64,000 nucleotides of DNA from an uncultured Candidatus Saccharibacteria bacterium. Its GTDB lineage: Bacteria > Patescibacteriota > Dojkabacteria > SC72. Under the pieces are notes generated by a model. That model saw only the letters and a list, made by a program, of their open reading frames with translations, ran no database searches and was not told the DNA's origin. The stretch covers positions 27,962 through 91,961 of the forward strand of contig CAYZNW010000004.1 of NCBI GenBank assembly GCA_964480345.1, in the 5' to 3' direction. This document shows, piece after piece, positions 26,481 through 62,125 of this stretch (position 1 is its first letter; every line of letters starts with the position of its first letter). The position numbers and the translations under genes are program-made.

Positions 26481-27512
26481 ATGACTGAAATACTCAAAAC
26501 ATCACTAGAAGCCCTATTCATATCATCATTAGCATCAGCTCTCATAGCTCCAATTATGATTAATCTTCTTTACAAATTCGGTCAAGTTAGTGGCATAACA
26601 AAATCAAAAATAGGTGGAGGAGAGGGAGATAACACTCTATTTATGAAAATAATGAAGAGTACAACTACCAATGGTACTCCAAATATGGGAGGGATGTTAA
26701 TATGGATAGTAGTACCAATAATTACATTGATATTACTACCTGTAACTGAGATAAGTAGAATCTTTTTAATAGGTTTCTCTCTCTTTGGTCTATGGGGATT
26801 CATAGATGTTGTGGTATTTACAAACGGTTTTAAAAAGAACGAGAAGATGAGAGTGTTGCAAGAGTCATTTGAATGGAGACTTTTCAAACTTTGTTTTGCT
26901 ATGTTAATGAATATTGGGATTATGTTTCTTCTTAAAAGAAGTGGGTATATATCATCAATAAATATCATAGATAGCTTAGCATTAAACTTTACTCCTATCA
27001 TAGCGATTATCTCTGGTGTAGTAGGGCAGTTTGCAATATATTCAGCTGAGCTCTCTGATGGAGCAGATGGTTTGATGATAGGTATATTCATCATAATCAC
27101 AGTAGGAATGAGTACATTACTTCTAATACAGGGTAAATATGACTTCCTACCAATATTAGGAATAATACTAGGAGTACAATTAGTCGATCTTTACTTTAAT
27201 ATTCCTCCTGCAAGATTTTGGAATGGAGGACCTGGAGCTATGCCACTAGGCTTTGCGATGTACTTCATAGCTTTTGCTACAAATAATCTAATTCCTTACT
27301 TCTTGATGAGTTCAATAACTTGGATTATTATGCTTTCTAGTATGATGCAGATAGTTAGCATGAAGTTTTTCCATAGAAGAGTATTTAAGATAGCTCCAAT
27401 ACATCACCACTTTCAAGCAAACGGCTGGCCACAATACAAAGTAGTTATGAGATTCTGGTTGTTTGCTCTGTTTACAAGCATAATAGGAATATATATTGGG
27501 ATAGCTATCTAG
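26481..27512 (+). CDS. mraY: Phospho-N-acetylmuramoyl-pentapeptide transferase MraY
   Basis: C-terminal HHHFQANGWPQYKVVMRFW (MraY HHH motif). Polytopic membrane protein. Confidence 0.85.
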   Translation: MTEILKTSLEALFISSLASALIAPIMINLLYKFGQVSGITKSKIGGGEGDNTLFMKIMKSTTTNGTPNMGGMLIWIVVPIITLILLPVTEISRIFLIGFSLFGLWGFIDVVVFTNGFKKNEKMRVLQESFEWRLFKLCFAMLMNIGIMFLLKRSGYISSINIIDSLALNFTPIIAIISGVVGQFAIYSAELSDGADGLMIGIFIIITVGMSTLLLIQGKYDFLPILGIILGVQLVDLYFNIPPARFWNGGPGAMPLGFAMYFIAFATNNLIPYFLMSSITWIIMLSSMMQIVSMKFFHRRVFKIAPIHHHFQANGWPQYKVVMRFWLFALFTSIIGIYIGIAI

Positions 27513-28210
27513 TTACACTTTACAGTAGATGGCTCGCAGGTACATATCTGCTGTTTGCTAATAGATTCAAAGACATCTCCTATACCGTACAGGGTTCCAT
27601 TATAGTAACAGCTATTTAAATCAAACAGTTTTCCCTCCTCACTTCTATACATAATTGAGAATGAATCTAATTTTGGAATTGTAATATCCAAAATAGTGTA
27701 AATATTACTAATTAAACATGGTGTATCGTAAACCGAAGTATCACGATTAGTTAAAGTTGTTAATACTAGAGCATTTTCTCTTAATTCATAAAAACCTGTC
27801 TGTACTGGAGGATTACCATCAGATGTACAGTATGATTCTCTTTCAAAATATACATATATACTGTGCGGATTATGATTTACATCTCCTAAACTAACTTTTG
27901 AGCTATCACTTCCTCTTTCTAACTTTCTAACAAAAGCGTAGGAGAAATCTAAATTTTCTGTATTAAAAGAATCATATGACAAAACCCTTTTCTCATCTTC
28001 ACATTTCACCCCTTCAGCTCCAAAACATCTACAGTTAGCAAACTCTTTATACCCCTCTAGAATATCTCCCTCTTTGTAATATATACCGTTGAAAAGACAG
28101 CTATCTTTTCTCATTTCTCTTGATATTGAAATATACAGTACAAACAGAGAGGTAACAAAAAGAAAAACAGTAATTAACAGTAACCAATTCCTATTTTTCT
28201 CTCTTGCCAT
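27509..28210 (-). CDS. Secreted/anchored protein with a duplicated Cys motif domain
   Basis: N-terminal TM NWLLLITVFLFVTSLFVLYISI. Two copies of C..NG.Y...GD......C.C.....VKC (CLFNGIYYKEGD...CRCFGAEGVKCE and CYYNGTLYGIGD...CTCEPSTVKCN). Confidence 0.5.
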   Translation of the reverse strand: MAREKNRNWLLLITVFLFVTSLFVLYISISREMRKDSCLFNGIYYKEGDILEGYKEFANCRCFGAEGVKCEDEKRVLSYDSFNTENLDFSYAFVRKLERGSDSSKVSLGDVNHNPHSIYVYFERESYCTSDGNPPVQTGFYELRENALVLTTLTNRDTSVYDTPCLISNIYTILDITIPKLDSFSIMYRSEEGKLFDLNSCYYNGTLYGIGDVFESISKQQICTCEPSTVKCN

Positions 28211-31150: not shown

Positions 31151-32350
31151 ATGGCAATTTATGAGCCTTTAGCATCAAAATATAGACCGAAGAGTTTAGA
31201 GGATTTTGTTGGTCAAACTCATTTGGTTGGGAAGAATGGACCAATTAGGAAGTTTTTGGAGAGTGGGAATATTCCATCTATGATTTTTTGGGGACCTCCA
31301 GGTACAGGTAAGACTACTTTAGCGTATATTCTTTCTTTGAATTTGTATTATGATTTTCATAAGGTGCAGGCTGTTAATAGTGGTAAGGATGCTTTAAGAA
31401 AGATTATTAAGATTGCACTTGGGAATCAGCAGTATGGTAAGAAGACGATTCTTTTTTTGGATGAGATTCATAGATGGAATAAGGCTCAGCAGGATGCTTT
31501 GCTTCCGTATGTGGAGAAGGGGGTTATCATTTTAATTGGAGCTACTACAGAGAATCCTTCTTTTACTGTGATTAGTGCTTTGTTGTCTAGGACTAAGGTT
31601 TTTGTGTTTAAACAGCATACAGAGGATGATATTTTTTCTCTTCTTGGGAGGATTAGTAAGGAGGAGTTTCCAAAGATCAAGATAGATCAGAAGGTGTTAA
31701 GGAGTATGGCTTCTTTATCAAATGGTGATATTAGGTCTGGTTTAAATATTTTAGAGATGAGTAGTAATTTAGCGTTGGCTAATGGTAGTAAGAGTGTTAC
31801 TGCTAAGCTTTTGCAGGATACTGTTCAGAGTCCTGTCTACTATGACAAGAATGGAGAGGAGCATTACAATTTGATTTCAGCTGTTCATAAGTCTATGAGG
31901 TCTTCTAATCCTGATGCGGCTTGTTACTGGGTAGGTAGGATTATAGCGGGGGGAGAGGATCCTCTTTTTGTTGCAAGAAGGCTGTTGCGTTTCGCAAGTG
32001 AGGATGTTGGGAATTCTGATCCTAATGCGGTTGTTTTAGCTAATGCTGTATATGAGGCTTGTGCGAAGATTGGTATGCCAGAGAGTGAGGTTTTTCTTAT
32101 GCAATTAGCAATATATTTGGCTAATGCTCCAAAGGACAATACAGCGTATGTTGTGGAGGGATTGGTTAAGGAGGATATAGAGAAGTTTGGTAATTTACCT
32201 GTGCCTATGCATATTAGAAATGCTCCTACTAAATTGATGAAGGAGTTGGGATATTCAAAGGGATATGAGTATGATCATGATTTAAAGAGTAAGAAGTCTA
32301 ATCAACAGTGTATGCCTGACAAATTGAAGAACAGGAAATATATTACTTAA
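31151..32350 (+). CDS. rarA: Replication-associated recombination protein A (RarA/MgsA AAA+ ATPase)
   Basis: YRPKSLEDFVGQ, GPPGTGKTTLA, LFLDEIHRWNKAQQDALLPYVEKG. Confidence 0.9.
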   Translation: MAIYEPLASKYRPKSLEDFVGQTHLVGKNGPIRKFLESGNIPSMIFWGPPGTGKTTLAYILSLNLYYDFHKVQAVNSGKDALRKIIKIALGNQQYGKKTILFLDEIHRWNKAQQDALLPYVEKGVIILIGATTENPSFTVISALLSRTKVFVFKQHTEDDIFSLLGRISKEEFPKIKIDQKVLRSMASLSNGDIRSGLNILEMSSNLALANGSKSVTAKLLQDTVQSPVYYDKNGEEHYNLISAVHKSMRSSNPDAACYWVGRIIAGGEDPLFVARRLLRFASEDVGNSDPNAVVLANAVYEACAKIGMPESEVFLMQLAIYLANAPKDNTAYVVEGLVKEDIEKFGNLPVPMHIRNAPTKLMKELGYSKGYEYDHDLKSKKSNQQCMPDKLKNRKYIT

Positions 32351-34880
32351 ATCTCTCCTCTATATTTTTCTTCTTCTGTGTTCTTCTAATTTCACCATTT
32401 CTTATAACATATCTACCTAGTTTTAGAACTCTATTTCCCATTGTAATATACAGGCTGTCTATGAACTTTGTAGTAGGGTAGAACAGGACGCCTAGTATCA
32501 ACATAGTAGCTCCAAGTACTACATTTCTTAGGTATGCGTTATCAAATATTCCTGTTTTAGGTGGCACTCCTGGAGTAGATGGACACAAACAGGTAGCTTT
32601 GCTACATTTATCCCATGAGCATGTAGTTCCTGATGGATTTCCTTCTTCACACTGTTCACCTTCTTGTAATTTTCCATCTCCGCAATATTCCGAGACTTTA
32701 ACTTCACAATCACATGTTGATTTACTACACTCTTCCCACAAGCAGGATACACCAGTAGGATTATTTTTCTCACACTGTTCTCCTGTATCTAATTTACCAT
32801 CTCCACATCCTGGTTCTATACATTCACATTTTAATTGGTTACATGTATCCCATTTACAGGTTGTACCTGTAGGGTCACCTTTCTCACACTGTTCTCCTGC
32901 ATCCAATGTTCCATCTCCACATCCTGGAGTTATACATTTACATGTTGTTCTATTACATGTATCCCATTTACAAGTAGTTCCGCTAGGATCTCCAACTTCA
33001 CACTGTTCTCCAGCTACATTTATTATTCCATCTCCACAGAAAGGAGCAGTAACAGTAGGACAAGTACAAGTTACATTGTTACAAACATTCCAACTACAAG
33101 AGACTCCAGTAGGATCTCCAAACTCACATTTTTCACCTGTTGTATTTCCTAATATTCCATCTCCACAGTACGGGACTCCAGGTGTTGGAGGAGGAATAAC
33201 AGGTGGTTCAGATGGAGGTTCATTACATGTATCACAGATAAGATTTTCTACTCTACATATCTGATCACAAGTACCTGTAACTGCAGTCGTCCAATAATTA
33301 CCACAATTACACAAAATTGGAGCACGGACATTTGAGCCTACTGTACCTGGTTCACAAGGATCCACTGATGTCTTTCCTGTAGGAACTAAAACTGCTGTTT
33401 GAGTTTTGGCATCGTATCTGTATGTGTAATCATCTGCAGAAAGCTTCTCACAAGCAGACGTGCCATCAGGCATCTGACAATAAACATGAGAATTACAATC
33501 GACAACTTTACCATTCATAATACAGTAACGAACAACCGATTTCTGTGTCTTAATACAAGCAGACGTGCCATCAGGCATCTGACAATAAACATTAGAACTA
33601 CAATCAACAACTTTACCATTAACTGTACATTCTGTAATAGTTCTTCTAAGGGCCTTGTTTAAAGCTTCTTCCATAACTCTCTCCTTAACTTCAGCTGCTT
33701 CTTTACTCCCAGTATTAGCAACATACTGATCTAAAGAGGTTTGATTTACAGGAGTAGTTGAAGAACCACTACCTGTATTAACTTTTATTTGATCTGCTGA
33801 TCTCACACCCTCCAACGCTGTATTCATTGAAACGGGTTTATTTGAACTATTCAGAAGTGATGATCCATTCCAAGTGTAGGTAACACCACCTATCGTTACT
33901 GTATCCCCCTGTTTCAAATTATTTACAAGAGTAGGATACAACGTTTGTTCTTCAGGAGGTGTTTGATTTAGATGCGAAGCATTACTACCAAAGAGTTCTT
34001 CGTCTTTCTTCTTTTGCTCTTCATATTTTGCTGCTATTCTTTGCTCTTCTTCATTACCATGTTCTGCTCTTGCATTCATTAAATCTTCATATGTAGCACA
34101 ATTTGGGCGACAATCACCAGCGGAACTTCGTAAAGGGCTATAATTACTTTTTATACTATTAACCTTAAATGTTAAGTATCCAAGAGAACAAATTATCAAG
34201 AATACTTGAGCCCCAAGAACAATTCTTCTTTTTCTGTAATCAAATTTATTTCTAAAGAATAGAATAACAACAAAGCTAACAACAATTAAAATAATCACAA
34301 TAATTAATAAAATCAAAGTAACAATATTAATCTTGTTGACATAATCTATCAGAGTCATAGAAGCTATCTCTTTGTTATATGCTTGAATTGACTCCTCTAA
34401 ATAGTCATCTGCTTCTTTAATGCTAGCCTTTAAATCGATGTTTTCAGCTTCTAAAGTGAACCTACTTCCAATAGCTAAAGTAATATCATCAACACCTACT
34501 GTACACACGTCTTTATATAAGAAAGTAGGAACAAGTATTTCGGAGAAATAACACTTCTGCCTATACAACTTAGCAAATTCCTCATAAATATTTCCTCCCC
34601 TTGGAACATTTACTACATTAACTGTAAAATAATCTACTTTCTCAGGAGAAACGCTATTAATATAGTCTAATACTGTTTTACTTGCCTCAGATCCATCTTG
34701 TACAAACAAATATGCTTTTTCCTTGTCATAATCACTTGCTTTAAAATCATTTACCTCTGTGATAGCTGAAGTCGCAGTGCTATCCTGCGCTTTTACCTCA
34801 TTAACATTACACAAAGAAAATAAAAGAAATGTGAAAAATACAACCAAAAGAGAACTCCAAGCAGTTTTTAATCTATACAT
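32343..34880 (-). CDS. Large Cys-rich repeat membrane protein (signal peptide, internal TM, 5 tandem CGDG..GEQCE repeats, C-terminal TM)
   Basis: Signal MYRLKTAWSSLLVVFFTFLLFSLCNVNEVKA|QD (track start 34949 is probably too far upstream). TM LILLIIVIILIVVSFVVILFF. A duplicated 35-aa module containing NGKVVDC.S.VYCQMPDGTSAC. Five repeats of about 38 aa, CGDG.(L/I)...GEQCE.G.P.G..C.W..C....C.C, similar to the Myxococcus cysteine-rich repeat (TIGR02232-type). C-terminal TM and a basic tail. Confidence 0.7.
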   Translation of the reverse strand: MYRLKTAWSSLLVVFFTFLLFSLCNVNEVKAQDSTATSAITEVNDFKASDYDKEKAYLFVQDGSEASKTVLDYINSVSPEKVDYFTVNVVNVPRGGNIYEEFAKLYRQKCYFSEILVPTFLYKDVCTVGVDDITLAIGSRFTLEAENIDLKASIKEADDYLEESIQAYNKEIASMTLIDYVNKINIVTLILLIIVIILIVVSFVVILFFRNKFDYRKRRIVLGAQVFLIICSLGYLTFKVNSIKSNYSPLRSSAGDCRPNCATYEDLMNARAEHGNEEEQRIAAKYEEQKKKDEELFGSNASHLNQTPPEEQTLYPTLVNNLKQGDTVTIGGVTYTWNGSSLLNSSNKPVSMNTALEGVRSADQIKVNTGSGSSTTPVNQTSLDQYVANTGSKEAAEVKERVMEEALNKALRRTITECTVNGKVVDCSSNVYCQMPDGTSACIKTQKSVVRYCIMNGKVVDCNSHVYCQMPDGTSACEKLSADDYTYRYDAKTQTAVLVPTGKTSVDPCEPGTVGSNVRAPILCNCGNYWTTAVTGTCDQICRVENLICDTCNEPPSEPPVIPPPTPGVPYCGDGILGNTTGEKCEFGDPTGVSCSWNVCNNVTCTCPTVTAPFCGDGIINVAGEQCEVGDPSGTTCKWDTCNRTTCKCITPGCGDGTLDAGEQCEKGDPTGTTCKWDTCNQLKCECIEPGCGDGKLDTGEQCEKNNPTGVSCLWEECSKSTCDCEVKVSEYCGDGKLQEGEQCEEGNPSGTTCSWDKCSKATCLCPSTPGVPPKTGIFDNAYLRNVVLGATMLILGVLFYPTTKFIDSLYITMGNRVLKLGRYVIRNGEIRRTQKKKNIEERFK
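32567..33185 (-). repeat. Five tandem coding repeats of about 114 nt (Cys-rich CGDG-GEQCE modules) inside the 32343..34880 CDS
   Basis: Repeated protein modules seen in translation. The antisense shadow ORFs 32599..33264 and 32835..33152 are a by-product of the periodic composition. Confidence 0.55.
33452..33660 (-). repeat. Intragenic tandem duplication with a 105-nt period (two near-identical copies of about 64 nt)
   Basis: aagcagacgtgccatcaggcatctgacaataaacat(g/t)aga... occurs at 33452 and again at 33557. It encodes the duplicated NGKVVDC.S.VYCQMPDGTSAC module. Confidence 0.7.
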
Positions 34881-34912
34881 AATAAACATACAATACCAAT
34901 ATAGAAAAAATT

Positions 34913-36160
34913 TTGCAATACATATATAATCAAAACATGAACATATCAACAGACAAACAAATCATAAATAGAATACTAACAAAAGCAGTAGAACAAATCC
35001 TGCCATCCAAGGAACTTTTAGAAAAAAAACTACTCTCTGGAGAAAGACTAAACATCTACCAAGGATTTGACCCAACAGCAGACACACTACACATAGGACA
35101 CACAGTTGCAATGAGAAAGTTAGAAGACTTTAGAAAATTGGGACACCATGTAATCTTCCTCATAGGAGACTTCACAGCAAGAATAGGAGATCCTAGTGAT
35201 AAAACAAACGCTAGAAAGGCACTAACAGAACAACAGGTAAAAGAAAATCTGAAAGACTATGTAGAACAAGCCTCACACATTATTGATATAAATAACAAAG
35301 AGAACCCAGTAGAAATACTCTTCAACAGCCAATGGCATGACAAGTTAACATTCCAAGATGTCATAAATCTCTCTACAGAATTCACAGTACAACAAATGCT
35401 CAAAAGAAACATGTTCCAACAAAGAATAAAAGAAGACAAACCAATATACCTAAATGAATTCCTCTACCCAATAATGCAAGGATACGACTCAGTAGTCATG
35501 AACATAGATATAGAGGTAGGAGGAAATGATCAACTCTTCAACATGCTTGCAGGAAGAGATATGGTTCTCAACCATCTCAACAAAGAGAAGAGCGTCATAA
35601 CTACAAGATTACTTACTACACAAGATGGTGCCAAAATGGGTAAGTCAGAAGGTAATATGGTCAAACTCAATGATAAACCAGAAGAGATATATGGAAAGAT
35701 AATGGCAAGTACTGATGATTCTATCGTAGAGATGTTCGAGCTACTCACATCTGCTGATTTAGAAGAATTAGAAAAATACAAAGAAAGATTACAAGCAGGA
35801 GAGAATCCTATGAATTTGAAAAAAGAACTAGCCTTTAGAATAACCAAGGAGGTAAAAACAGAAGAGGAAGCCGTACTAGCACAGAAACATTTTGAATCAA
35901 TATTTCAAAAAAGAGATAATTCTACAGACACAATAGAACAGAAAACACTCTCGGAAGATGAGATAAATATATTAGATCTACTCGTACAAGTAGGCTTTTC
36001 ACAAAGCAAAGGAGAGGCAAGAAGATTAGTAGAACAGGGTGCTGTTAAAATAAACGATCAGAAGTGTACAGATTACAAAACAACTGTAGATTTCAAAAAC
36101 GATCAAGAAATCATATTAAAAGCAGGAAGACATATTTGTCTAATTAGATACTCTAAATAA
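34913..36160 (+). CDS. tyrS: Tyrosyl-tRNA synthetase with a C-terminal S4 domain
   Basis: HIGH (TLHIGHTVAM) and KMSKS-type (AKMGKSEGN) motifs. The start could be the downstream ATG at 34937. Confidence 0.9.
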   Translation: MQYIYNQNMNISTDKQIINRILTKAVEQILPSKELLEKKLLSGERLNIYQGFDPTADTLHIGHTVAMRKLEDFRKLGHHVIFLIGDFTARIGDPSDKTNARKALTEQQVKENLKDYVEQASHIIDINNKENPVEILFNSQWHDKLTFQDVINLSTEFTVQQMLKRNMFQQRIKEDKPIYLNEFLYPIMQGYDSVVMNIDIEVGGNDQLFNMLAGRDMVLNHLNKEKSVITTRLLTTQDGAKMGKSEGNMVKLNDKPEEIYGKIMASTDDSIVEMFELLTSADLEELEKYKERLQAGENPMNLKKELAFRITKEVKTEEEAVLAQKHFESIFQKRDNSTDTIEQKTLSEDEINILDLLVQVGFSQSKGEARRLVEQGAVKINDQKCTDYKTTVDFKNDQEIILKAGRHICLIRYSK

Positions 36161-47302: not shown

Positions 47303-49792
47303 ATGAAAATAACTACGAACTTACTAAAACAATTTGGCGATATTAATGTCTCAGATGAAGAGATTATTAGATTAACTAAAGAACATATTGCAGAAGTAGA
47401 GGAGCAACACAATCTAAAGGCTGATTATGAAAATATAATCATTGCAGAGATAACAAGCAAAGAAATACATCCTGATTCAGATAAGCTTGGAATATATAAA
47501 TTAACCACAGATGGAAGTAATCAAATACAGGTAGTTGCAGGAGATAGAAATTTACAAATAGGGGATAAGGTAGCATATATCCAACCAGGAGCCATAGTTC
47601 CATATTCTATTTACACAGAAGAAGAGCCTATTACAATTAAGAGTGTAAAATTAAGAGGTGTAGATTCAAACGGTATGATGGGGTCAGAAAGAGAGTTGAA
47701 TATAGGAAGCAATCATATAGAAGTCTACAAATTACCTAAAGATGCTCCTGTAGGAGAATCTTTCTCAAAATATTTCAATTTGGAAGATACTGCATTCTCC
47801 ATAGAGAATAAAGGCTTAACAAATAGAGGAGATCTTTTTGGAGTGATTGGTCTTGCAAGGGAGTTAACAGCTATTACTGGTAATAAATTTACCTCTCCTG
47901 AGTCATATGTCGATCATGATAGTAACCTTAAACCAGAAACTAGCTGTTTAAATCTTCAAATTACAAATAATGCTGAAGTGCTTTGTCCAAGATATACAGC
48001 AATAGCTATAGATAATGTAAACATACAAGAATCTCCAGTAGAGTTTAAATCTACATTGATAAAATGCGGTATTAAACCAACAAACAATATAGTTGATATA
48101 ACAAACTATGTCTCTTTGATATTTGGACAACCTATGCATGCTTTTGATTATGACAAGGTTATTTCTAATGATAGAAGTACTACTAATACTGCAAATATAG
48201 AAATTAGATTAGCTAGAGAAGGTGAAAATATGTTAGGTTTGGATAACAAAGTACACGAGTTGAATAGTAGGACAGTTGTAATAGCAGATAGCACCCATCC
48301 AATAGCTATTGCAGGAGTAATTGGTGGTAAAGATACAGAAGTAGATTTCAATACCAGAAGAATAATATTTGAATCTGCTAATTTTGATAAAAATAGTATT
48401 AGAAAAACCTCGATGGAGTTAGGGGTATTCACGGATGCATGTACTAAATACAAACACTCTTTAGATACAGAGGTAACATTACCTGCTCTAAAGAAAGCAG
48501 TATCATTAGCGAAAGAGTTAGCTGGGGCTAAAGTTGCTTCCTCTATAGTCGATCTATATGAAATACCTTTTGATACAAACCAAACCATTAAGTTTGATAT
48601 TGATAATTTTAATACAATAGCAGGTATAGAAATAAGTCCAGAAGAGATAAAAAAGATTCTTGAGAATTTGGAGTATAAAGTTACAGAGAACGATGATAAT
48701 TCATTAATTGTATTTATTCCTTCATGGAGGAGAGATATTTCTATCAAAGAAGATCTGTACGAAGACATTATTAGAGTGTATGGATACAACAATATAGTTC
48801 CTATTCTTCCAAAGAAACAGATTAAACCTCCTGTAAAAAATGAGATATTTGAACTTAAGAAAGAGGTTCGAAATATATTAAGTAATAGAGGAGCTAATGA
48901 AATTGTAAGTTACAGTTTTACTGGTTTGAAGAATTTCCAAGAGTGTAATTTAAATCCTGATGAGGCTTTTAGAATTGCAAATCCTCTTTCACCTGAATTG
49001 TTTCTGATGAGAACAAGCATCTTGCAATCAGTTTTGCAAAAAGCAAAAGAGAATATATTACGATGTTTTGATAAATTTGTGTTATATGAGCAGGGAATTT
49101 CTCATCTAAGGAGTAGAATAGATGAGGGTAATGTTCCTGAAGAGGAGTGGATGCTTTCTACAGTTGTTACTGATATGAGAAAGGATGATTATGAAGGCTC
49201 GCCATATTATGAATCTAAGAAATATCTTGATGATTTACTGGAAAGTTTAAATTATCATAATGTTAAATATACTCTTGTAGCAGATATGGAAGAGGAGAAA
49301 TTGCCTGCAAGAATAAAGAATCTTCTTCCTATATTTGATCCTAATGTCTCAGCGATTGTATCTATGGGTATGGATTATTTCGGTATAGTAGGAGAGGTGA
49401 AAGAGAGTATTAAAGATACTTTCAAATTACCAAAGAACACATCTGCTTTTGAGATTTCATTATCTCATCTCATTACATTAGATAGGTCAATGAAATCATA
49501 TAGAGATATCCCTGTATATCCTCCTTTTTCAATAGATATGTGTTTTAAGGTAGATACTGCTATACTTTACTCTGATTTATATAACGAGATTAATTTTGTT
49601 GTAAATAAAGAGAATTACTATGGAAAAGTTGAATGTTTGGATATATATCAAGATAACGATGAGAAGAAAAAGATAACATTTAGAATATCAGTAAGTAATT
49701 ACAACAGTACATTTACTGAGAAACAAATTAATGAGATTAAGGAACAAATAATTAAAAAGCTATCAAAGAAATTCTTAGCTGAGGTTGTTTAA
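47303..49792 (+). CDS. pheT: Phenylalanyl-tRNA synthetase beta subunit
   Basis: 829 aa, starts 1 nt after the pheS stop. B3/4, B5 and FDX-ACB-like architecture inferred from length and context. Confidence 0.85.
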   Translation: MKITTNLLKQFGDINVSDEEIIRLTKEHIAEVEEQHNLKADYENIIIAEITSKEIHPDSDKLGIYKLTTDGSNQIQVVAGDRNLQIGDKVAYIQPGAIVPYSIYTEEEPITIKSVKLRGVDSNGMMGSERELNIGSNHIEVYKLPKDAPVGESFSKYFNLEDTAFSIENKGLTNRGDLFGVIGLARELTAITGNKFTSPESYVDHDSNLKPETSCLNLQITNNAEVLCPRYTAIAIDNVNIQESPVEFKSTLIKCGIKPTNNIVDITNYVSLIFGQPMHAFDYDKVISNDRSTTNTANIEIRLAREGENMLGLDNKVHELNSRTVVIADSTHPIAIAGVIGGKDTEVDFNTRRIIFESANFDKNSIRKTSMELGVFTDACTKYKHSLDTEVTLPALKKAVSLAKELAGAKVASSIVDLYEIPFDTNQTIKFDIDNFNTIAGIEISPEEIKKILENLEYKVTENDDNSLIVFIPSWRRDISIKEDLYEDIIRVYGYNNIVPILPKKQIKPPVKNEIFELKKEVRNILSNRGANEIVSYSFTGLKNFQECNLNPDEAFRIANPLSPELFLMRTSILQSVLQKAKENILRCFDKFVLYEQGISHLRSRIDEGNVPEEEWMLSTVVTDMRKDDYEGSPYYESKKYLDDLLESLNYHNVKYTLVADMEEEKLPARIKNLLPIFDPNVSAIVSMGMDYFGIVGEVKESIKDTFKLPKNTSAFEISLSHLITLDRSMKSYRDIPVYPPFSIDMCFKVDTAILYSDLYNEINFVVNKENYYGKVECLDIYQDNDEKKKITFRISVSNYNSTFTEKQINEIKEQIIKKLSKKFLAEVV

Positions 49793-52578
49793 TTGTTATT
49801 ACCATTTCCAGGTTTAGGTGTGATAGGGTCGGCAGGAGGAGTAACTGGTTCAGTTGCTACGGCTTTGACTGTGACAGAAGCAGTACCTATTTTTGCATGA
49901 TTATCTTTAGCTGTTACTACTATTTTAATATCTCCTGCTTTAGTGGTAGTAGGTACTGTGTAATGTATTACATATGAGCCATCAGCATTTAATGAAGCGG
50001 CAACATTTTTCCCATCAAAAGTAACTATGAACTCAGAAATACTTTCTAAGTATCTAACACTTCCTGTGATTTCCACCATCTGACCTATTTTTACTTCAGC
50101 TCCAGATGCCGGAGTCTTAATTTCTACTACAGGAGCATTATTTTCACCTAAAGGAAGCTGACATACTCCAGTTGCAGGATTATCAAATAGATAAACTGAA
50201 TCTGCAGGAGCAGTTAAATGTACTTTATATGCATCAAACTGTAAAGAATTTTCTAATTTTGTAGAAAGAAGGATTTTTGTCGTAACTAGTTCATACTTTC
50301 GAGCTGCATCAAGATTCGTAGGAATCAAATTATTAGCTTTACAAACTTCAATTACCTTTCTGTTATCAACCTGAGGAGCTTTACCAGCAATATATAAAGA
50401 AGCTTCTTTCGCACATTCTACTCCCTCAGCAGGAGTTGCACCTGTATCTGTACAAACCGATGTAGTCATAATACCTGCGGGCCTATTAAAAGCAAATTCA
50501 GAGTAGCTATCTATAACTCGCTTGAAGAAAGAGTTAGCCATAGCAAGAGAGATCGTAGAAGCCCAACCGTTAGGCATAATCTCTCCATTGTTATTACCGT
50601 TCCATGCCCCAACAACTAAGCTTTGATTGTACAAGAAGGCATCTAAGTCTTTAGGACCATCTGTTGTACCTGTCTTTCCACAAACTTTTTTACCATTAAT
50701 ATAGAAGTAATTATCTCCATACCTGTCATGGAATCCTTGGATATCACAAGCCATCCAGTTAATTAAATATGCTTCCTTTTCATCTATAACTCTAGTTCCT
50801 TCATTATCTTTATACTCTTTCAAAATATTCCCTTTGTTATCCTCCACTTTTAGAATAGATGTAACATCGTGTTTAACTCCACTGTTTGCCAATGTTGCAA
50901 ACGCACCAGCAAAGTCCAAAAGTTTCATCTCTGCCGAACCTAATCCTAAACTCAAACCGTAACTAGCTTTAGATACAATATCTACACCTAGTTTCTCCAT
51001 AAGCTGAATATACCCATCAATACCACCAAGCTGCAACATATATACGGCAGGAGTATTTCGAGAGAGAACAAGAGCTTTTCTTGCAGTCATTAAACCTTGA
51101 TTTTTTCCATCCCAGTTCTTAGGGTCATAGGTTCCAAATTTAATCTCAGCTATATCAGGAGCAAGTGTCCAAGGACCGTACCCTCTTGATATCGCATTAA
51201 GATACACAAAAGGCTTAACTGAAGAACCCATCTGTCTATCACTCGTCGTAATATTTACATTACCATCCACACGAGGATCCGAAGTATTCCAGTAATCTAC
51301 AGAACCAACCATAGCTAATATCTGACCGTTCTTTGGATTTAATACAATCATAGCTCCGTTATTTGCATTAAACCTTCTAGCAGCATCAACACTTTTAACA
51401 ACCTCTTCTTCTGCTATAGATTGCAAAGACGGATCAAGAGTAGTAGTAACTTTCAATCCTCCTCTTTCAACACGATCAATGCCAAACTCCTCTTCTAAAA
51501 GCTGTTTAACATAAAAGACAAAATGAGGAGCCTTAATATCAATCTTCTTTGTACTGTAAGTTAACTCTTCATCTCTTGCCGAAGCTATTTCATCTTTATT
51601 AATACCTGTAAGATTTTGATGCTTTTCCATTTGATCTAAAACATACTGCTTTCTTACCTCAGCCATCTCCGGTTTTGTTCCATACAAAGGAGAGTATATT
51701 CCAGGACTCTGAATCAAACCTGATATCAATGCACTCTCTGCAAGTGTAAGTTCACTTACATCTTTATTAAAATATGCATTAGCAGCAGCTTGGAAACCGT
51801 AATTAACTCCTCCAAGAGGCACTTCATTCATATACATCTGTAATATCTGATCTTTGGTAAATGTCTGTTCTACCTGCATAGTAATCAAAACCTCCTGTAT
51901 TTTCCTGGAGTATGTTTGTTTGTAGGCATCATCTCCAAGCACATCGTAGAGGATAGTGTTTTTTACCAACTGTTGAGTAACAGTACTGGCTCCTCTAACA
52001 ACTCTCTTATTTCTTAAGTTCTGAATAAAAGATTTGAGAATGCCTAAGTAATCCAATCCTTTATGCTGATAAAACTCAATATCTTCAGCAGCAAGCAGAG
52101 CCCATTTAGTATGATCAGGAATCTGATCTATTGGAACAAATTTCCTGTTGTGATCTTTATATACTGTGTAAAGTAAATTCCCATCTTTATCTAAAATCTG
52201 AGTACTCTGATCTGATACTCTATCAACAAGTTTATCTGGAGAGGGTAATGACTTCTGAATGTTTCTTAAATACAAACCAACCACTATTAATCCAACACAA
52301 CCAAGAAAGAATAAAACACCAATGAAAATATATACTACTTTCTTTGCCTTCTTTTTAAACTCAGCATTACCAAAAGGTCGTTTCGTTCCTACTTTCTTAA
52401 TATCTCCCTCCTTATTACTTCTTTTACTAATACCATTAGCACTATACTTCTTGAAATTTTTGTACCTATTTAATTCAGTAGGACCAAAAGATCTTGAAAG
52501 ATTTCGAATGGAATCCTTACTTCCAAACATCTTTTTTCGTCTATCGCTTATACCAAAACTGTACTTCATGGTTACCAT
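49789..52578 (-). CDS. Class A penicillin-binding protein (bifunctional GT51 transglycosylase/transpeptidase, PBP1A-like) with a basic N-terminal cytoplasmic extension and a C-terminal Ig-like/Pro-rich extension
   Basis: GT51 motifs ALLAAEDIEFYQHKGLD and RGASTVTQQLVKN. Transpeptidase SSVKPF (SxxK). The C-terminal 150 aa are beta-rich, ending in PVTPPADPITPKPGNGNNN. Confidence 0.85.
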   Translation of the reverse strand: MVTMKYSFGISDRRKKMFGSKDSIRNLSRSFGPTELNRYKNFKKYSANGISKRSNKEGDIKKVGTKRPFGNAEFKKKAKKVVYIFIGVLFFLGCVGLIVVGLYLRNIQKSLPSPDKLVDRVSDQSTQILDKDGNLLYTVYKDHNRKFVPIDQIPDHTKWALLAAEDIEFYQHKGLDYLGILKSFIQNLRNKRVVRGASTVTQQLVKNTILYDVLGDDAYKQTYSRKIQEVLITMQVEQTFTKDQILQMYMNEVPLGGVNYGFQAAANAYFNKDVSELTLAESALISGLIQSPGIYSPLYGTKPEMAEVRKQYVLDQMEKHQNLTGINKDEIASARDEELTYSTKKIDIKAPHFVFYVKQLLEEEFGIDRVERGGLKVTTTLDPSLQSIAEEEVVKSVDAARRFNANNGAMIVLNPKNGQILAMVGSVDYWNTSDPRVDGNVNITTSDRQMGSSVKPFVYLNAISRGYGPWTLAPDIAEIKFGTYDPKNWDGKNQGLMTARKALVLSRNTPAVYMLQLGGIDGYIQLMEKLGVDIVSKASYGLSLGLGSAEMKLLDFAGAFATLANSGVKHDVTSILKVEDNKGNILKEYKDNEGTRVIDEKEAYLINWMACDIQGFHDRYGDNYFYINGKKVCGKTGTTDGPKDLDAFLYNQSLVVGAWNGNNNGEIMPNGWASTISLAMANSFFKRVIDSYSEFAFNRPAGIMTTSVCTDTGATPAEGVECAKEASLYIAGKAPQVDNRKVIEVCKANNLIPTNLDAARKYELVTTKILLSTKLENSLQFDAYKVHLTAPADSVYLFDNPATGVCQLPLGENNAPVVEIKTPASGAEVKIGQMVEITGSVRYLESISEFIVTFDGKNVAASLNADGSYVIHYTVPTTTKAGDIKIVVTAKDNHAKIGTASVTVKAVATEPVTPPADPITPKPGNGNNN

Positions 52579-61165: not shown

Positions 61166-62125
61166 TTATGCTCTCTTGTAATCTTTCCTAACTATTACAA
61201 CTCCTGAGCTTAGTACAAATGCTGCTATTGCTAGTATTCCAAAAATCATCATAAGCTTGTTGCCAAATAATGAATCTAAAGCTTCAGATAATTCTCCTGA
61301 TGCTACTGGAAGAGTAGAGTCAACAACTCCATCTCCATCAACATCTGCGACTGCATTACCATTTACACTACTTTCTGCAGAGTAGATAACTTTAATTTTC
61401 TCTTCGACATCGGTAACATTTCCTGCTTTATCTCTAATTTCCATACTAAATACATTTGGACCCTCCTCAAGAACTACTCCTTTCACTACAAAGTTACCTG
61501 AGTCATCACACTCGCTATTGTAAATACTTGTACCTCTTTTCAATATAACCTGACAACCTGGCTCTACATTTCCTGCAACTGAGAAAGTCTCAGTTCCTAC
61601 TTCTGCAGGATAGTTTACTTTTCCTAAAACAGGAACAGTCTTATCTACTTCGACTACTTTAGATGTAGATCTTGTTGAGATATATCTCTTTGGAAAACCC
61701 TTAACACCAGCTGCACTTACTACATATTTACCCTCACCACCTGTATTGTACTTATAAGCAAAATTACCCTCCTTATCTACATTTGTCTTACCTACATACT
61801 CATCATTTACATATACATACACATTGTTATACCCAGAAGCTACACCTTTAATCTCTACTTCATCTTGATTAGTCTCAGAAACAGTACCTGAAATAAATGG
61901 GGCTTGGAAAGATTCATCCAGCTGTGGTTCTCTTGTATATTTTATGAAAGAGAATATTCCATACAATACAAAGCCTAAACCTAAGATGATAAATATTGTA
62001 CCTAATATTCTAGAAATCTTATCTTGATCTTCTACTTCGACAGTTTTTACTTCTACTTTAGAAACCATACTATCTTTGCTCTCTGAAATTGGTTTTGTAG
62101 AAATGTATGTTTTTTTCTTAGCCAC
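61166..62125 (-). CDS. Surface protein with an N-terminal signal anchor, Ig-like beta-rich ectodomain, and a C-terminal hydrophobic segment plus positively charged tail (cell-wall-sorting-signal-like topology)
   Basis: N-terminal TM ISRILGTIFIILGLGFVLYGIFSFI. C-terminus ...STLPVASGELSEALDSLFGNK-LMMIFGILAIAAFVLSSGVVIV-RKDYKRA. Divergently adjacent to a sortase gene. Confidence 0.5.
   Translation of the reverse strand: MAKKKTYISTKPISESKDSMVSKVEVKTVEVEDQDKISRILGTIFIILGLGFVLYGIFSFIKYTREPQLDESFQAPFISGTVSETNQDEVEIKGVASGYNNVYVYVNDEYVGKTNVDKEGNFAYKYNTGGEGKYVVSAAGVKGFPKRYISTRSTSKVVEVDKTVPVLGKVNYPAEVGTETFSVAGNVEPGCQVILKRGTSIYNSECDDSGNFVVKGVVLEEGPNVFSMEIRDKAGNVTDVEEKIKVIYSAESSVNGNAVADVDGDGVVDSTLPVASGELSEALDSLFGNKLMMIFGILAIAAFVLSSGVVIVRKDYKRA

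What the first reader, a model, noticed from the sequence alone, without database searches (positions are those of the whole stretch)
32343..34880. Roughly 850-aa Cys-rich membrane protein with five tandem CGDG-GEQCE (Myxococcus-cysteine-rich-repeat-like) modules and a duplicated 35-aa Cys module
After a signal peptide and an internal TM helix, the protein carries two near-identical NGKVVDC.S.VYCQMPDGTSAC modules. These are followed by five repeats of about 38 aa, CGDG.L..GEQCE.G.P.G..C.W..C....C.C, with six Cys per repeat, then a C-terminal TM and a basic tail. I know this repeat class mainly from myxobacterial, Bdellovibrio and some CPR surface proteins. Its function is unknown; it may be an adhesin or a host/epibiont-contact protein. 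It is one of the largest proteins in a genome that otherwise looks minimised, which suggests importance for a surface or interaction phenotype.
Basis: partly seen in the sequence, partly recalled or inferred. Interest (0 to 1): 0.5.

Follow-up and report, generated by a model that had tools for sequence, protein, structure and literature searches.

The report
Cysteine-knot surface protein of a Dojkabacterium
This is a real 845-residue cell-envelope protein found so far almost only in Dojkabacteria (tiny candidate-phyla-radiation bacteria): a redox-dead thioredoxin-like head, a membrane hairpin, a fast-evolving middle, five strongly conserved six-cysteine repeats and a sortase-type "PPKTG" end signal, so it is an interesting but not revolutionary surface protein.

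Summary
Window 32343..34880 (-) encodes an 845-aa protein with five tandem 6-Cys CGDG…GE[QK]CE repeats, two 35-aa NGKVVDC modules, a signal peptide and a C-terminal TM with a basic tail.

- **Correction:** there are two internal TM helices forming a hairpin, not one.
- **Repeat class:** the repeats are a divergent 6-Cys, Trp-containing subtype of the "cysteine-rich acidic repeat" (TIGR02232 / DUF4215). They score at the family cutoffs only when the repeat region is scanned alone. Profile-profile probability is 97.5%, but only over the N-terminal half of the repeat.
- **Missed (2):** the C-terminus is an LPXTG-like sorting signal (PPKTG + TM + basic tail). A sortase gene lies in the same window.
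- **Missed (3):** the gene sits between TyrRS and RarA in all five Dojkabacteria-type loci recovered, and all named members are "hypothetical protein".
- **Missed (4):** the gene is mosaic. The repeats are 61-85% identical across the family, while head and middle are 7-25% identical in every member compared except the closest ortholog. Segment similarity conflicts with neighbour-gene similarity.

Most likely it is a disulfide-stapled, probably sortase-processed envelope or contact protein. Its function is untested.

The parts
32343..34880 (-). Whole CDS, 845 aa plus stop codon (32343-32345). It overlaps the 3' end of the convergent RarA/MgsA gene (31151..32350) by 8 nt.
   Evidence: The start is supported by alignment to homolog N-termini.
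34788..34880 (-). Signal peptide, residues 1-31 (MYRLK / hydrophobic core / VKA|QD).
   Evidence: Hydropathy. The -3/-1 small residues are conserved in homologs (VKA|V, LAQ|V, LGQ|E, FAQ|E, VKA|E). Read by eye; no SignalP was available.
34461..34763 (-). Thioredoxin/glutaredoxin-fold ectodomain, residues ~40-140. It contains the invariant loop Pro118 (at the position of the Trx-fold cis-Pro) and the Cys110/Cys126 pair.
34680..34691 (-). S64-E-A-S67, sitting where the family has the CxxC redox motif (N-terminus of helix 1).
   Evidence: Alignment A5 shows CESC, CEGC (three members), CEAC, CKAC and CEFC in 7 of 9 members. It shows SEAS here and SESS in P0002. L009 has SAAS.
34332..34460 (-). Long juxtamembrane helix, residues 141-183, connecting the Trx-like domain to TM1.
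   Evidence: The AF2 model has a helix from about residue 130 to 173 in protein numbering (98-141 in the model), at lower pLDDT of 56-82.
34161..34331 (-). TM hairpin: TM1 at 184-209, cytoplasmic basic loop RNKFDYRKRR, TM2 at 219-240.
   Evidence: Hydropathy. The hairpin is present in all full-length homologs.
34056..34160 (-). Conserved extracytoplasmic juxtamembrane segment, residues 241-275, with the motif KVN...SSAG-x-C257-x3-C261-ATYEDL. Both Cys are invariant in the family.
   Evidence: Invariant columns A254, C257 and C261 in the 10-sequence alignment A4.
33630..34055 (-). Hypervariable middle region, residues 276-417, charged and Ser/Thr/Asn-rich.
   Evidence: 7-19% identity to family members other than P0002.
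33450..33629 (-). Two lineage-specific 4-Cys NGKVVDC...VYCQMPDGTSAC modules, residues 418-477, 35-aa period.
   Evidence: DNA copies at 33450-33524 and 33555-33629 are 91% identical. Only P0002 shares them.
33222..33428 (-). Conserved module, residues 485-553: Y-x-Y-D-x-x-T...P-x-G, then seven invariant Cys at 509, 524, 526, 538, 542, 549 and 552.
   Evidence: Invariant columns in A4 and A7. AF2 gives a small beta-rich unit at low confidence, pLDDT 58-77.
33168..33221 (-). Pro-rich linker, residues 554-571 (EPPSEPPVIPPPTPGVPY).
   Evidence: Sequence. AF2 pLDDT is below 50 here.
32583..33167 (-). Five tandem 6-Cys repeats, residues 572-766. R1 is 572-607, R2 615-649, R3 654-687, R4 692-725 and R5 733-766.
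   Evidence: TIGR02232 scores 24.9 bits and PF13948 27.5 bits on this region alone. hhalign gives 97.5% over the first half. This is the most conserved part of the protein, at 61-85% identity across the family.
32550..32564 (-). P773-P-K-T-G777, an LPXTG-like ((S/P)PXTG-type) sorting motif, followed by the conserved IFD.
   Evidence: Homologs carry YPQTS, PPQTS, FPQTS, SPQAS, SPQTG, VPDTG, APQTG and SPNTG. Other 6-Cys-repeat proteins carry LPETG, IPQTG, VPQTG and IPETG. PPKTG and SPQTG are cleaved by C. difficile SrtB between T and G (PMC4155245).
32472..32534 (-). C-terminal hydrophobic helix, residues ~783-803.
   Evidence: Hydropathy. Conserved in homologs.
32346..32471 (-). Basic cytoplasmic tail, residues 804-845, ending ...KKKNIEERFK. 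The terminal [KR]x[FY]E-x-[KR]-[VIF]-type motif is shared with other proteins that carry the same sorting signal.
62226..62912 (+). Sortase gene: N-terminal TM anchor and TLVTC catalytic motif. It is the candidate processing enzyme. The link to the target is inferred, not shown.
   Evidence: PF04203 at E 3.9e-25. TIGR01076 at 68.1 bits against a cutoff of 39.35. No class-specific model reaches its cutoff.

Best explanation
It is a disulfide-rich cell-envelope protein of a Dojkabacteria-type (candidate phyla radiation) bacterium, at a conserved genome position.

**Proposed working**
1. Export by Sec with a cleaved signal peptide puts a thioredoxin-fold domain outside the cell.
2. A two-helix hairpin re-anchors the chain in the membrane.
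3. The remaining ~540 residues are outside again:
   - a juxtamembrane Cys pair;
   - a fast-evolving middle region, probably the exposed part;
   - a 7-Cys module and a proline linker;
   - five six-cysteine acidic repeats, each a small disulfide knot, which together make the conserved core of the protein.
4. The chain ends in PPKTG + hydrophobic helix + basic tail. The genome's sortase most likely cleaves this signal after Thr776 and joins the repeat array to the cell wall.
5. The mature protein would then be held both by the membrane hairpin and by the wall.

**The head.** In most relatives the thioredoxin-like head carries CxxC. It plausibly oxidises or isomerises the protein's own ~45 cysteines, or those of other exported proteins. 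In this genome the motif is SEAS, so the head cannot do CxxC redox chemistry here and is at most a scaffold or chaperone-like module.

**Role.** The likely role is envelope architecture and/or contact with other cells, with the variable head and middle under diversifying pressure.

**Shown:** domain composition, Trx fold, loss of CxxC, repeat relationship, motif conservation, sortase gene, synteny, mosaicism.

**Inferred:** topology, disulfide formation, sortase cleavage, wall attachment, biological role.
For: **Architecture and topology.**. The basic loop between the hairpin helices and the basic C-tail satisfy the positive-inside rule.

**Trx fold.**
- AF2 pLDDT 87.2.
- Foldseek top 50 almost all Trx-fold proteins.
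- CxxC at the canonical helix-1 N-terminus in 7 of 9 family representatives, SEAS/SESS/SAAS in this clade.

**Repeats.**
- Borderline TIGR02232 and PF13948 hits.
- The family profile reaches 466 proteins at E<=1e-3, including bona fide TIGR02232 proteins.
- hhalign 97.5%.
- The repeats are the most constrained segment: 61-85% identity against 14-25% for the head and 7-19% for the middle in members other than the closest ortholog P0002.
- Orthologous repeats resemble each other more (~90%) than paralogous ones (~50%).
- Of 100 W-type repeats, 86 keep all six Cys. The commonest exception is joint loss of C3 and C6, seen 6 times in three proteins, which implies a C3-C6 disulfide.

**Sorting signal.**
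- xPxT[GS] + IFD + TM + basic tail is conserved in all homologs.
- 22 of 28 proteins with the 6-Cys repeat carry this signal, against 3 of 121 without it.
- Some carry the canonical LPETG.
- PPKTG is a proven sortase substrate motif in C. difficile (PMC4155245).
- A sortase gene lies at 62226..62912.
- Sortases occur in more than half of CPR genomes (PMC6744442).

**Conserved-position gene.**
- The order TyrRS-X-RarA is found in L001, L002, L004, L005 and L009.
- The named members are Candidatus Dojkabacteria hypothetical proteins.

**Surface-protein-like evolution.** See the mosaicism analysis.

**Prior art.** Cys-rich extracellular proteins with weak Myxococcus-repeat similarity were already noted in CPR Peregrinibacteria and proposed to act in attachment (PMC4736985).
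Against: - No experiment bears on this family.
- No LPXTG-anchor model of NCBIfam matches the C-terminus at E<=1.
- The tail after the hydrophobic helix is 42 aa. By my own knowledge of typical sorting signals, usual tails are under ~10 aa. It also ends in a conserved motif, which is odd for a peptide that would be discarded.
- Several orthologs have Ser, and one has Ala-Ser, in place of Thr-Gly (PQTS, PQAS).
- The only sortase seen is 27 kb away. It sits next to a different candidate substrate with an LPVAS motif.
- A sortase substrate with an additional internal TM hairpin is not the classical pattern.
- The AF2 model of the Cys-rich part is weak (pLDDT 65.8, pTM 0.30) and has no structural or sequence relative in the PDB. 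The knot or stalk picture therefore rests on sequence logic only.
- Topology was read from hydropathy and charge, not from a dedicated predictor.
- The adhesion or contact role is pure inference.
Confidence: 0.55

Rival explanations
1. Same protein and topology, but not a sortase substrate. It would be a permanent three-pass membrane protein. PxTG-IFD would be a structural juxtamembrane motif, and the long conserved basic tail (…KKxIE-x-x-FK) would contact a cytoplasmic partner, for example for localisation or signalling.
For: - The tail is 42 aa and carries a terminal motif conserved across many proteins with this ending.
- G is replaced by S in several orthologs, and T by A in one.
- No LPXTG-anchor HMM hit.
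- The internal hairpin already anchors the protein.
Against: - The motif is always xPxT[GSA], at a fixed short distance before a hydrophobic helix and a basic cluster. That is the tripartite sorting-signal design.
- Some members have the canonical LPETG.
- PPKTG and SPQTG are verified sortase motifs elsewhere.
- A sortase is encoded in the window.
Confidence: 0.3
2. The family's primary job is extracytoplasmic thiol-disulfide oxidoreduction, as a membrane-tethered DsbA/MdbA-like enzyme for the cell's exported proteins. The Cys-rich array would be a secondary wall-spanning tether. The window's copy would then be a pseudo-enzyme that kept only the structural role.
For: - Trx fold with CxxC at the canonical site in 7 of 9 representatives.
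- Invariant loop Pro118 at the cis-Pro position and an invariant juxtamembrane Cys pair C257/C261 next to it.
- CPR bacteria rely on membrane-bound MdbA-like oxidoreductases (PMC6744442).
Against: - The head is the least conserved folded part (14-25% identity), while the repeats are 61-85% identical. That is opposite to what is expected if the head were the essential enzyme.
- Three lineages (window, P0002, L009/L010) dispense with both active-site Cys yet keep the whole protein intact.
- No Trx, Grx or DsbA Pfam or NCBIfam model reaches E<=0.1 on any family member.
- The domain lacks the helical insertion that, to my knowledge, characterises DsbA-type oxidases.
Confidence: 0.15
3. The conserved acidic Cys repeats are the functional unit. 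They would act as a cation (Ca2+) or cell-wall-polymer binding array, by analogy with LDL-receptor class A or thrombospondin type 3 repeats, rather than as an inert stalk. This can coexist with the best explanation.
For: - The repeats are far more conserved than the rest.
- Each repeat position has its own conserved identity across orthologs.
- Invariant acidic and Gly positions (GDG, GE-x-C-E, [GN][DN]P) occur in every repeat.
- NCBI names the parent family 'cysteine-rich acidic repeat'.
Against: - No structure and no binding data exist for this or the parent family.
- The AF2 model is low-confidence and has no PDB match.
- The analogy to Ca-binding repeats is recalled from general knowledge, not tested here.
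Confidence: 0.25
4. A generic myxobacterial-type DUF4215 adhesin recently acquired by horizontal transfer.
For: - Local GC is slightly higher (0.383 against ~0.33).
- The parent repeat family is widespread in unrelated bacteria and eukaryotes.
Against: - Identical gene order TyrRS-X-RarA in five independent Dojkabacteria-type loci.
- The 6-Cys/Trp repeat subtype and its sorting signal co-occur in the proteins that carry them.
- The GC excess is probably explained by Cys, Gly and Pro codons (my inference).
Confidence: 0.03

Closest known systems
Cysteine-rich acidic repeat / Myxococcus cysteine-rich repeat (NCBIfam TIGR02232; Pfam PF13948, DUF4215)
   Same: - Tandem ~35-40-aa extracellular repeats that open with P-x-C-G-[DN]-G-x-[LIV]-[DQN]-x-G-E-x-C-[DE]-x-G-[DN].
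- hhalign 97.5%, E 6e-12 over these 20 columns.
- Direct HMM scores at the cutoffs on the isolated repeat region.
- The function of the parent family is also unknown. It occurs in a diatom adhesive-trail protein (bioRxiv 10.1101/2023.03.06.531300).
   Different: - The second half is P-x-G-x2-C-x-W-x2-C-x4-C-x-C (six Cys and an invariant Trp), not the x3-5-[DG]-G-C-x3-C-x2-E of the four-Cys canonical repeat.
- The whole protein and its orthologs fall below the family cutoffs.
- The copy number is low and fixed (4-5), whereas the canonical repeat proteins retrieved carry roughly 7 to 67 CGDG motifs.
- This subtype is tied to an xPxTG-IFD sorting signal.
Cys-rich large extracellular proteins of CPR bacteria (Ca. 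Peribacter riflensis; Anantharaman et al. 2016, PMC4736985)
   Same: [quoted passage not shown]
   Different: - Those are larger (mean 1,655 aa) and clustered as a 14-gene island in another phylum.
- No thioredoxin head, TM hairpin or conserved syntenic single locus was described for them.
- Sequence relatedness to them was not tested here.
Sortase substrates with (S/P)PXTG cell-wall sorting signals (Clostridioides difficile SrtB substrates such as CD2831; PMC4155245)
   Same: - Signal peptide at the N-terminus.
- The identical pentapeptide PPKTG (SPQTG in relatives), followed by a hydrophobic segment and a positively charged tail.
- A sortase is encoded in the genome.
   Different: - The tail is 42 aa with a conserved terminal motif.
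- A conserved IFD follows the motif.
- Ser replaces Gly in some orthologs.
- An additional internal TM hairpin is present.
- The window's sortase fits no defined class A-F.
- Cleavage is untested.
Redox-inactive thioredoxin-fold domains (e.g. PDI b/b' domains, PDILT) and membrane-tethered extracytoplasmic oxidoreductases (MdbA/DsbA of Gram-positives)
   Same: - Trx fold outside the cytoplasm and tethered to the membrane.
- Relatives carry CxxC at the canonical position, and this copy has Ser-x-x-Ser.
- The PDILT b' domain is among the Foldseek matches.
- MdbA-like enzymes are enriched in CPR.
   Different: - No sequence-family membership: no Pfam or NCBIfam Trx, Grx or DsbA hit.
- A minimal Grx-like fold without the DsbA helical insertion.
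- Fused in one chain to its own Cys-rich ectodomain through a TM hairpin.

Membership tests
TIGR02232 / PF13948 (DUF4215) cysteine-rich acidic repeat | Score at or above the curated HMM cutoffs | tested here: inconclusive
   - Whole protein: TIGR02232 17.3 bits against a cutoff of 20.8, and no PF13948 hit.
- Repeat region alone: TIGR02232 24.9 bits (cutoff 20.8) and PF13948 27.5 bits (cutoff 27).
- Ortholog's repeat region: 19.3 and 14.3 bits, both below cutoff.
- Single repeats: only R5 reaches 20.8 bits.
TIGR02232 / PF13948 (DUF4215) cysteine-rich acidic repeat | N-terminal half-motif C-G-[DN]-G-x4-6-G-E-x-C-[DE]-[DE]-G-N | tested here: met
   - hhalign of A1 against 31 canonical repeats (A9): probability 97.5%, E 6.2e-12, 20 aligned columns.
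- The family profile retrieves canonical proteins, for example P0019 at E 1.2e-25, which itself scores 471.8 bits on TIGR02232.
TIGR02232 / PF13948 (DUF4215) cysteine-rich acidic repeat | C-terminal half of the repeat (…[DG]-G-C-x3-C-x2-E; four Cys per unit) | tested here: not met
   - The second half does not align in hhalign.
- HMM matches cover mainly profile positions 2-28 of 38.
- The window repeat has P-x-G-x2-C-x-W-x2-C-x4-C-x-C with six Cys.
TIGR02232 / PF13948 (DUF4215) cysteine-rich acidic repeat | Tandem multi-copy arrangement in a secreted or surface protein | tested here: met
   Five tandem copies follow a signal peptide.
Sortase substrate (cell-wall sorting signal) | N-terminal signal peptide | tested here: met
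   Hydrophobic core at 5-24 and a VKA|QD site, conserved in homologs. Judged by inspection only.
Sortase substrate (cell-wall sorting signal) | LPXTG-like pentapeptide near the C-terminus | tested here: met
   - PPKTG at residues 773-777.
- xPxT[GS] in all homologs, and LPETG/IPQTG/VPQTG in other 6-Cys-repeat proteins.
- PPKTG is cleaved by C. difficile SrtB.
Sortase substrate (cell-wall sorting signal) | Hydrophobic segment followed by a positively charged tail directly after the motif | tested here: met
   Hydrophobic segment at 783-803 and a Lys/Arg-rich tail at 804-845. The tail is atypically long and carries a conserved terminal motif.
Sortase substrate (cell-wall sorting signal) | Match to curated LPXTG-anchor models | tested here: not met
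   The last 87 residues give no anchor-domain hit in NCBIfam at E<=1. The whole proteins P0012 and P0026 give none either.
Sortase substrate (cell-wall sorting signal) | Sortase encoded in the same genome | tested here: met
   Window 62226..62912: PF04203 at E 3.9e-25, TIGR01076 at 68.1 bits against a cutoff of 39.35, TLVTC motif.
Sortase substrate (cell-wall sorting signal) | Cleavage after Thr and transfer to peptidoglycan | not testable with these tools
   Needs an enzyme assay or mass spectrometry.
Thioredoxin-fold thiol-disulfide oxidoreductase | Thioredoxin fold | tested here: met
Thioredoxin-fold thiol-disulfide oxidoreductase | CxxC (or CxxS) active site at the N-terminus of helix 1 | tested here: not met
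   The window has S64-E-A-S67. Seven of nine family representatives have C-[EK]-x-C at this position.
Thioredoxin-fold thiol-disulfide oxidoreductase | cis-Pro loop before strand 3 | tested here: met
   Pro118 is invariant in all alignments and directly precedes the third core strand of the model. The cis conformation itself could not be checked.
Thioredoxin-fold thiol-disulfide oxidoreductase | Match to Trx/Grx/DsbA sequence families | tested here: not met
   No such Pfam or NCBIfam hit for the window protein or for 9 relatives. Only weak PDB profile hits at E 0.01-1.

The most novel reading that the evidence does not exclude
The family may be a previously undescribed kind of CPR envelope device with four properties.
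- A single chain is pinned to the membrane by a hairpin and to the wall by sortase.
- A built-in thioredoxin module oxidatively folds the chain's own cysteine-knot array as it emerges from the translocon.
- The ~500-residue head-plus-middle segment is exchanged between lineages as a cassette.
- Two head morphs, redox-competent CxxC and redox-dead SxxS, are maintained side by side. That would point to balancing or diversifying selection from hosts, phages or neighbouring cells.
Probability: 0.12. Interest if true: 0.7.

Novelty: new variant of a known kind. Interest (0 to 1): 0.42.

Why it matters
CPR bacteria are thought to live attached to or dependent on other cells, yet their surface proteins are almost all 'hypothetical'.

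This locus gives a concrete, conserved and easily recognised envelope protein for Dojkabacteria. It has three testable handles:
- a sortase-type signal, with the enzyme encoded nearby;
- a thioredoxin head that exists in active-looking and dead forms in close relatives;
- a six-cysteine repeat subtype that current Pfam and NCBIfam models barely detect.

Among the retrieved proteins this repeat subtype strongly co-occurs with one kind of C-terminal sorting signal. Defining the subtype and the xPxTG-IFD…KFE-x-KV ending as models would improve annotation of the proteins that carry them.

The mosaic pattern, with a conserved stalk and an exchangeable head, is the signature expected of a contact or antigenic surface. 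That makes the protein a reasonable candidate for host-interaction studies.

None of this overturns current understanding. It extends what was already noted for Cys-rich CPR surface proteins.

Tried and rejected
- **Word-indexed protein searches.**
  - The full protein found only itself and one ortholog.
  - The repeat alignment A1 gave 7 candidates, none significant.
  - The N-terminal alignment A8 gave 8000 candidates, none significant, not even the query members.
  - I treat the last two as prefilter failures, not as evidence of absence. The exhaustive HMMER search found 466 relatives.
- **Whole-protein family scans.** Pfam and NCBIfam on the window protein and on 9 relatives gave no family for the architecture.
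- **Cys-rich region (residues 482-778).**
  - AF2 gave pLDDT 65.8 and pTM 0.30.
  - Foldseek against the PDB gave only E>4 noise.
  - The PDB sequence profile gave only chance hits: an alcohol-dehydrogenase-like enzyme and a pentapeptide-repeat protein.
  - No fold assignment is made for this region.
  - The afdb50 library was not available.
  - An exact look-up of P0001 found no contig on record, so the source organism is inferred rather than read. The evidence is 82-90% identical flanking RarA and the same gene order as in the related loci, one of them titled Candidatus Dojkabacteria. The family proteins P0003 and P0008 also carry Dojkabacteria names.
- **Promoter and terminator scan of 32000..35300.** Nothing usable on the minus strand.
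- **Lipoprotein reading of the N-terminus (LFSL-C24).** Rejected, because position -1 is Leu and the Cys is absent in the ortholog.
- **DsbB/VKOR-like reading of the TM hairpin.** Rejected, because there are only two helices and no Cys conserved within them across the family.
- **Recent horizontal acquisition.** Rejected on synteny.

Full report
**1. What is in the sequence**

It encodes 845 aa starting MYRLKTAW.
- This start aligns with the N-termini of all full-length homologs.
- NCBI's own call for the identical protein begins three codons earlier (P0001, 848 aa).

- **Five tandem repeats, residues 572-766.**
  - Each has six Cys; 15 columns are invariant over the ten repeats of this protein and its ortholog.
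  - At the DNA level the five units are only 61-75% identical to each other, so the array is old.
- **Two NGKVVDC…VYCQMPDGTSAC modules, 35 aa apart (418-477).** Their DNA is 91% identical over 75 nt, so this duplication is recent.
- **51 Cys in total,** 49 of them in predicted extracytoplasmic parts.
- **An N-terminal hydrophobic signal with a VKA|QD site.**
- **A C-terminal hydrophobic helix with a 42-aa basic tail**.

One correction is needed. After the helix at 184-209 there is a basic loop (RNKFDYRKRR) and a second helix at 219-240. The internal anchor is therefore a hairpin. Only this arrangement puts both the N-terminal domain and the Cys-rich region outside the cell. The repeat motifs occur nowhere else in the window.

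**2. The repeats and the known family**

On the whole protein, TIGR02232 scores 17.3 bits against a cutoff of 20.8, and Pfam reports nothing relevant.

| Query | TIGR02232 (cutoff 20.8) | PF13948/DUF4215 (cutoff 27) |
|---|---|---|
| Window repeat region alone (223 aa) | 24.9 bits, E 1.3e-5, five stretches | 27.5 bits, E 4e-6 |
| Ortholog's repeat region | 19.3 bits | 14.3 bits |

An exhaustive HMMER search with the two-sequence profile found 466 proteins at E<=1e-3, 89 at <=1e-10 and 13 at <=1e-30.
- Below the handful of full-length relatives, the hits match only residues ~570-770.
- Many of them are classical multi-repeat proteins. P0019, for example, is hit at E 1.2e-25 and scores 471.8 bits on TIGR02232 with 14 stretches.

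hhalign of the window-type repeats against 31 canonical repeats gives 97.5% probability and E 6e-12. It aligns only the first 20 columns, PxCGDGxLDxGExC[ED]xG[DN].
- The second half differs. It reads P-x-G-x2-C-x-W-x2-C-x4-C-x-C, whereas the canonical repeat reads …GDGC-x3-C-x2-E.
As membership it is borderline. This is a six-Cys, Trp-containing subtype that current models barely see.

An HMM of the subtype found 100 such repeats in 43 proteins.
- 86 keep all six Cys.
- The commonest exception is joint absence of Cys3 and Cys6: six cases in three proteins (L009's repeat 2, P0012, P0049).
- I read this as evidence for a Cys3-Cys6 disulfide. This is an inference from correlated loss.

**3. The N-terminal domain is a thioredoxin fold that has lost CxxC**

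I first suspected this from reading residues ~56-130 (AYLFVQDG-SEAS-K…VPTFLYKDVCTVG).

The Dojkabacteria homolog in L002 has CESC exactly where the window has SEAS. In the nine-member alignment:
- seven members have C-[EK]-x-C (CESC, CEGC three times, CEAC, CKAC, CEFC);
- the window has SEAS and P0002 has SESS;
- the metagenomic relative L009 has SAAS.

Structural evidence:
- A profile search of PDB sequences returned almost only thioredoxins, glutaredoxins and Trx designs, at weak E-values of 0.01-1. The CxxC aligned to their CGPC.
- AF2 on this alignment gave pLDDT 87.2 and pTM 0.74, with the order beta-alpha-beta-alpha-beta-beta-alpha followed by a long helix.
- The Foldseek top 50 were almost all Trx-fold proteins: Grx, Trx, GST N-domains and the PDILT b' domain.

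In the model, the Ser at the first CxxC position comes immediately before helix 1 and the second Ser lies in its first turn. The invariant Pro118 directly precedes strand 3. No Pfam or NCBIfam Trx, Grx or DsbA model matches any member.

The fold is therefore established. The window's copy cannot perform CxxC chemistry.

**4. The C-terminus is an LPXTG-like sorting signal**

The chain ends …CPSTPGV-PPKTG-IFDNAYLRN-[hydrophobic 17-21 aa]-[42-aa Lys/Arg-rich tail ending EERFK].
- Homologs have YPQTS, PPQTS, FPQTS, SPQAS, SPQTG, VPDTG, APQTG or SPNTG at the same place.
- Unrelated proteins that carry the six-Cys repeat end in LPETG, IPQTG, VPQTG, IPETG or VPETG + IFD[ST] + TM + a basic tail with a recurrent KFE-x-KV-like end.
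- Among 149 retrieved proteins, 22 of the 28 with the six-Cys repeat have such an ending; several of the other six are visibly truncated fragments. Only 3 of the 121 without the repeat have it. Fisher p is 7e-18, not corrected for relatedness.

(S/P)PXTG, explicitly including PPKTG and SPQTG, is the motif that C. difficile SrtB cleaves between T and G (PMC4155245).

The window encodes a sortase at 62226..62912.
- PF04203 at E 3.9e-25, TIGR01076 at 68.1 bits against a cutoff of 39.35, and a TLVTC motif.
- It reaches no class-specific cutoff.
- Sortases are reported in more than half of CPR genomes (PMC6744442).

Points against simple sortase processing:
- no curated anchor model matches;
- the tail is long and conserved;
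- Ser replaces Gly in some orthologs;
- the protein has an extra membrane hairpin;
- the sortase's immediate neighbour (61166..62125) is a different candidate substrate ending in LPVAS-G…TM…RKDYKRA.

I put sortase processing at roughly 55-60%.

**5. Distribution, synteny and evolution**

Full-length relatives are few.
- Nine 50%-identity clusters among 1.84 billion representatives carry the Trx-like head.
- Two metagenomic loci add to these.
- The only names attached are 'hypothetical protein [Candidatus Dojkabacteria bacterium]'.
- One genome hit is titled Saccharibacteria but has the same neighbour.

In L001, L002, L004, L005 and L009 the gene lies directly next to RarA/MgsA.
- Wherever the other flank is held, it sits between TyrRS and RarA/MgsA, convergent with RarA.
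- In L004 and L005 this is inside a larger conserved block, SpoU-RecG-RelA/SpoT-TyrRS-X-RarA…TruB-…-TatD.
- The more distant P0032 sits elsewhere.

Repeat number is 5 or 4. The 4-repeat forms lack exactly one unit, from the middle of repeat 3 to the middle of repeat 4.

Conservation is very uneven. Against family members other than the closest ortholog P0002:
- repeats: 61-80% identical;
- Trx head: 14-25% identical;
- middle region: 7-19% identical.

The gene is mosaic.

| Compared genome | RarA identity to window |
|---|---|
| L002 | 90% |
| L001 (P0002's contig) | 82% |
| L009 | 82% |

- L002's protein has the most different head (7-37% identity per 60-residue block, CxxC type).
- The L001 and L009 proteins have more similar heads (SxxS type; 43-67% and 10-50% per block over the first ~500 residues).
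- The window's last ~110 residues resemble L002's (76-78%) more than P0002's (52-60%).
- P0002 and L009 share a 92-100% identical tail despite 13-73% identity upstream.

With only four alleles this is suggestive rather than proven. It is nonetheless the pattern of recombining surface-protein genes.

**6. Mechanism**

The best-supported reading is given under 'best explanation': a Sec-exported, hairpin-anchored, disulfide-stapled envelope protein.
- The conserved six-Cys acidic repeat array is the functional core.
- The C-terminus is probably transferred to the wall by sortase.
- The thioredoxin head is redox-dead in this lineage.
- The fast-evolving head and middle are likely the exposed surface.

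The very high conservation of each individual repeat argues that the array does more than act as a spacer, for example binding cations or a wall polymer. Nothing here tests that.

The Cys-rich part could not be modelled well (pLDDT 65.8) and has no PDB relative.

**7. Comparison and novelty**

Each component is known:
- a DUF4215/TIGR02232-like repeat;
- a Trx fold;
- an LPXTG-like signal;
- Cys-rich CPR surface proteins with weak Myxococcus-repeat similarity (PMC4736985).

Not found in Pfam, NCBIfam or the literature searched:
- the six-Cys/Trp repeat subtype and its tie to an xPxTG-IFD…KFE-x-KV ending;
- the four-part architecture (Trx head, hairpin, repeat array, sorting signal) as a conserved syntenic Dojkabacteria gene;
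- the CxxC/SxxS head dimorphism with mosaic exchange.

I class the finding as a new variant of a known kind. It is of moderate interest (0.42).

Noticed in passing
window 62226..62912 (+) and 61166..62125 (-): A sortase gene (PF04203 at E 3.9e-25; fits no class A-F model) lies head-to-head with a 319-aa Ig-like (Big_6/Big_13) protein. That protein has an N-terminal TM and ends STLPVASG…hydrophobic…RKDYKRA. This is a second candidate sorting signal, with the variant motif LPVAS instead of LPXTG.
   Followed up: partly
window 27509..28210 (-): A 233-aa membrane-anchored protein with 10 Cys. It has C-x-[FY]-NG-x-x-Y-x-x-GD…C-x-C…V-K-C modules at both ends (weak VWC-like hit, E 0.003). It lies between MraY and TatD. 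An unannotated ~235-aa gene occupies the same position in the Dojkabacteria loci L004 and L005, so it may be a second conserved Cys-containing envelope protein.
   Followed up: partly
window 32346..32564 (-); also P0015, P0017, P0026, P0038, P0061, P0100, P0142: Proteins with the xPxTG-IFD signal share a long cytoplasmic tail ending in a [KR][KR]-[FY]-E-x-[KR]-[VIF]-like motif (…EERFK, …KKFERRVAKRK, …KKFERKVAKS, …RFEKRITK). This is unusual for a peptide that a sortase would discard. No NCBIfam model covers it.
   Followed up: partly
L009 4001..6532 (repeat 2, protein residues ~610-646); P0012, P0049: Some six-Cys repeats have lost Cys3 and Cys6 together, with Cys3 replaced by Tyr or Glu. This points to a Cys3-Cys6 disulfide and shows that single repeats tolerate losing one staple.
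   Followed up: yes
L003 74..2104; P0006-P0009: Four-repeat alleles differ from five-repeat alleles by a clean deletion of one repeat unit, running from mid-repeat 3 to mid-repeat 4. This is consistent with unequal crossing-over within the array.
   Followed up: partly
L009 vs L001 (P0002), C-terminal ~110 residues: Two alleles that are 13-73% identical upstream share a 92-100% identical final segment (last repeat, sorting signal and tail). The window's tail instead resembles that of L002. Segment-wise similarity conflicts with RarA similarity, so recombination between lineages is likely.
   Followed up: partly
window 32343..32350: The target CDS and the convergent RarA/MgsA gene overlap by 8 nt at their 3' ends. 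The same tail-to-tail overlap is seen in L002, L004, L005 and L009.
   Followed up: no
window 49789..52578 (-): The largest ORF in the window is a class A penicillin-binding protein (transglycosylase + transpeptidase). It has a C-terminal Ig-like domain and a Pro-rich tail (…TEPVTPPADPITPKPGNGNNN). This fits a Gram-positive-like, peptidoglycan-containing envelope in which sortase anchoring makes sense.
   Followed up: no
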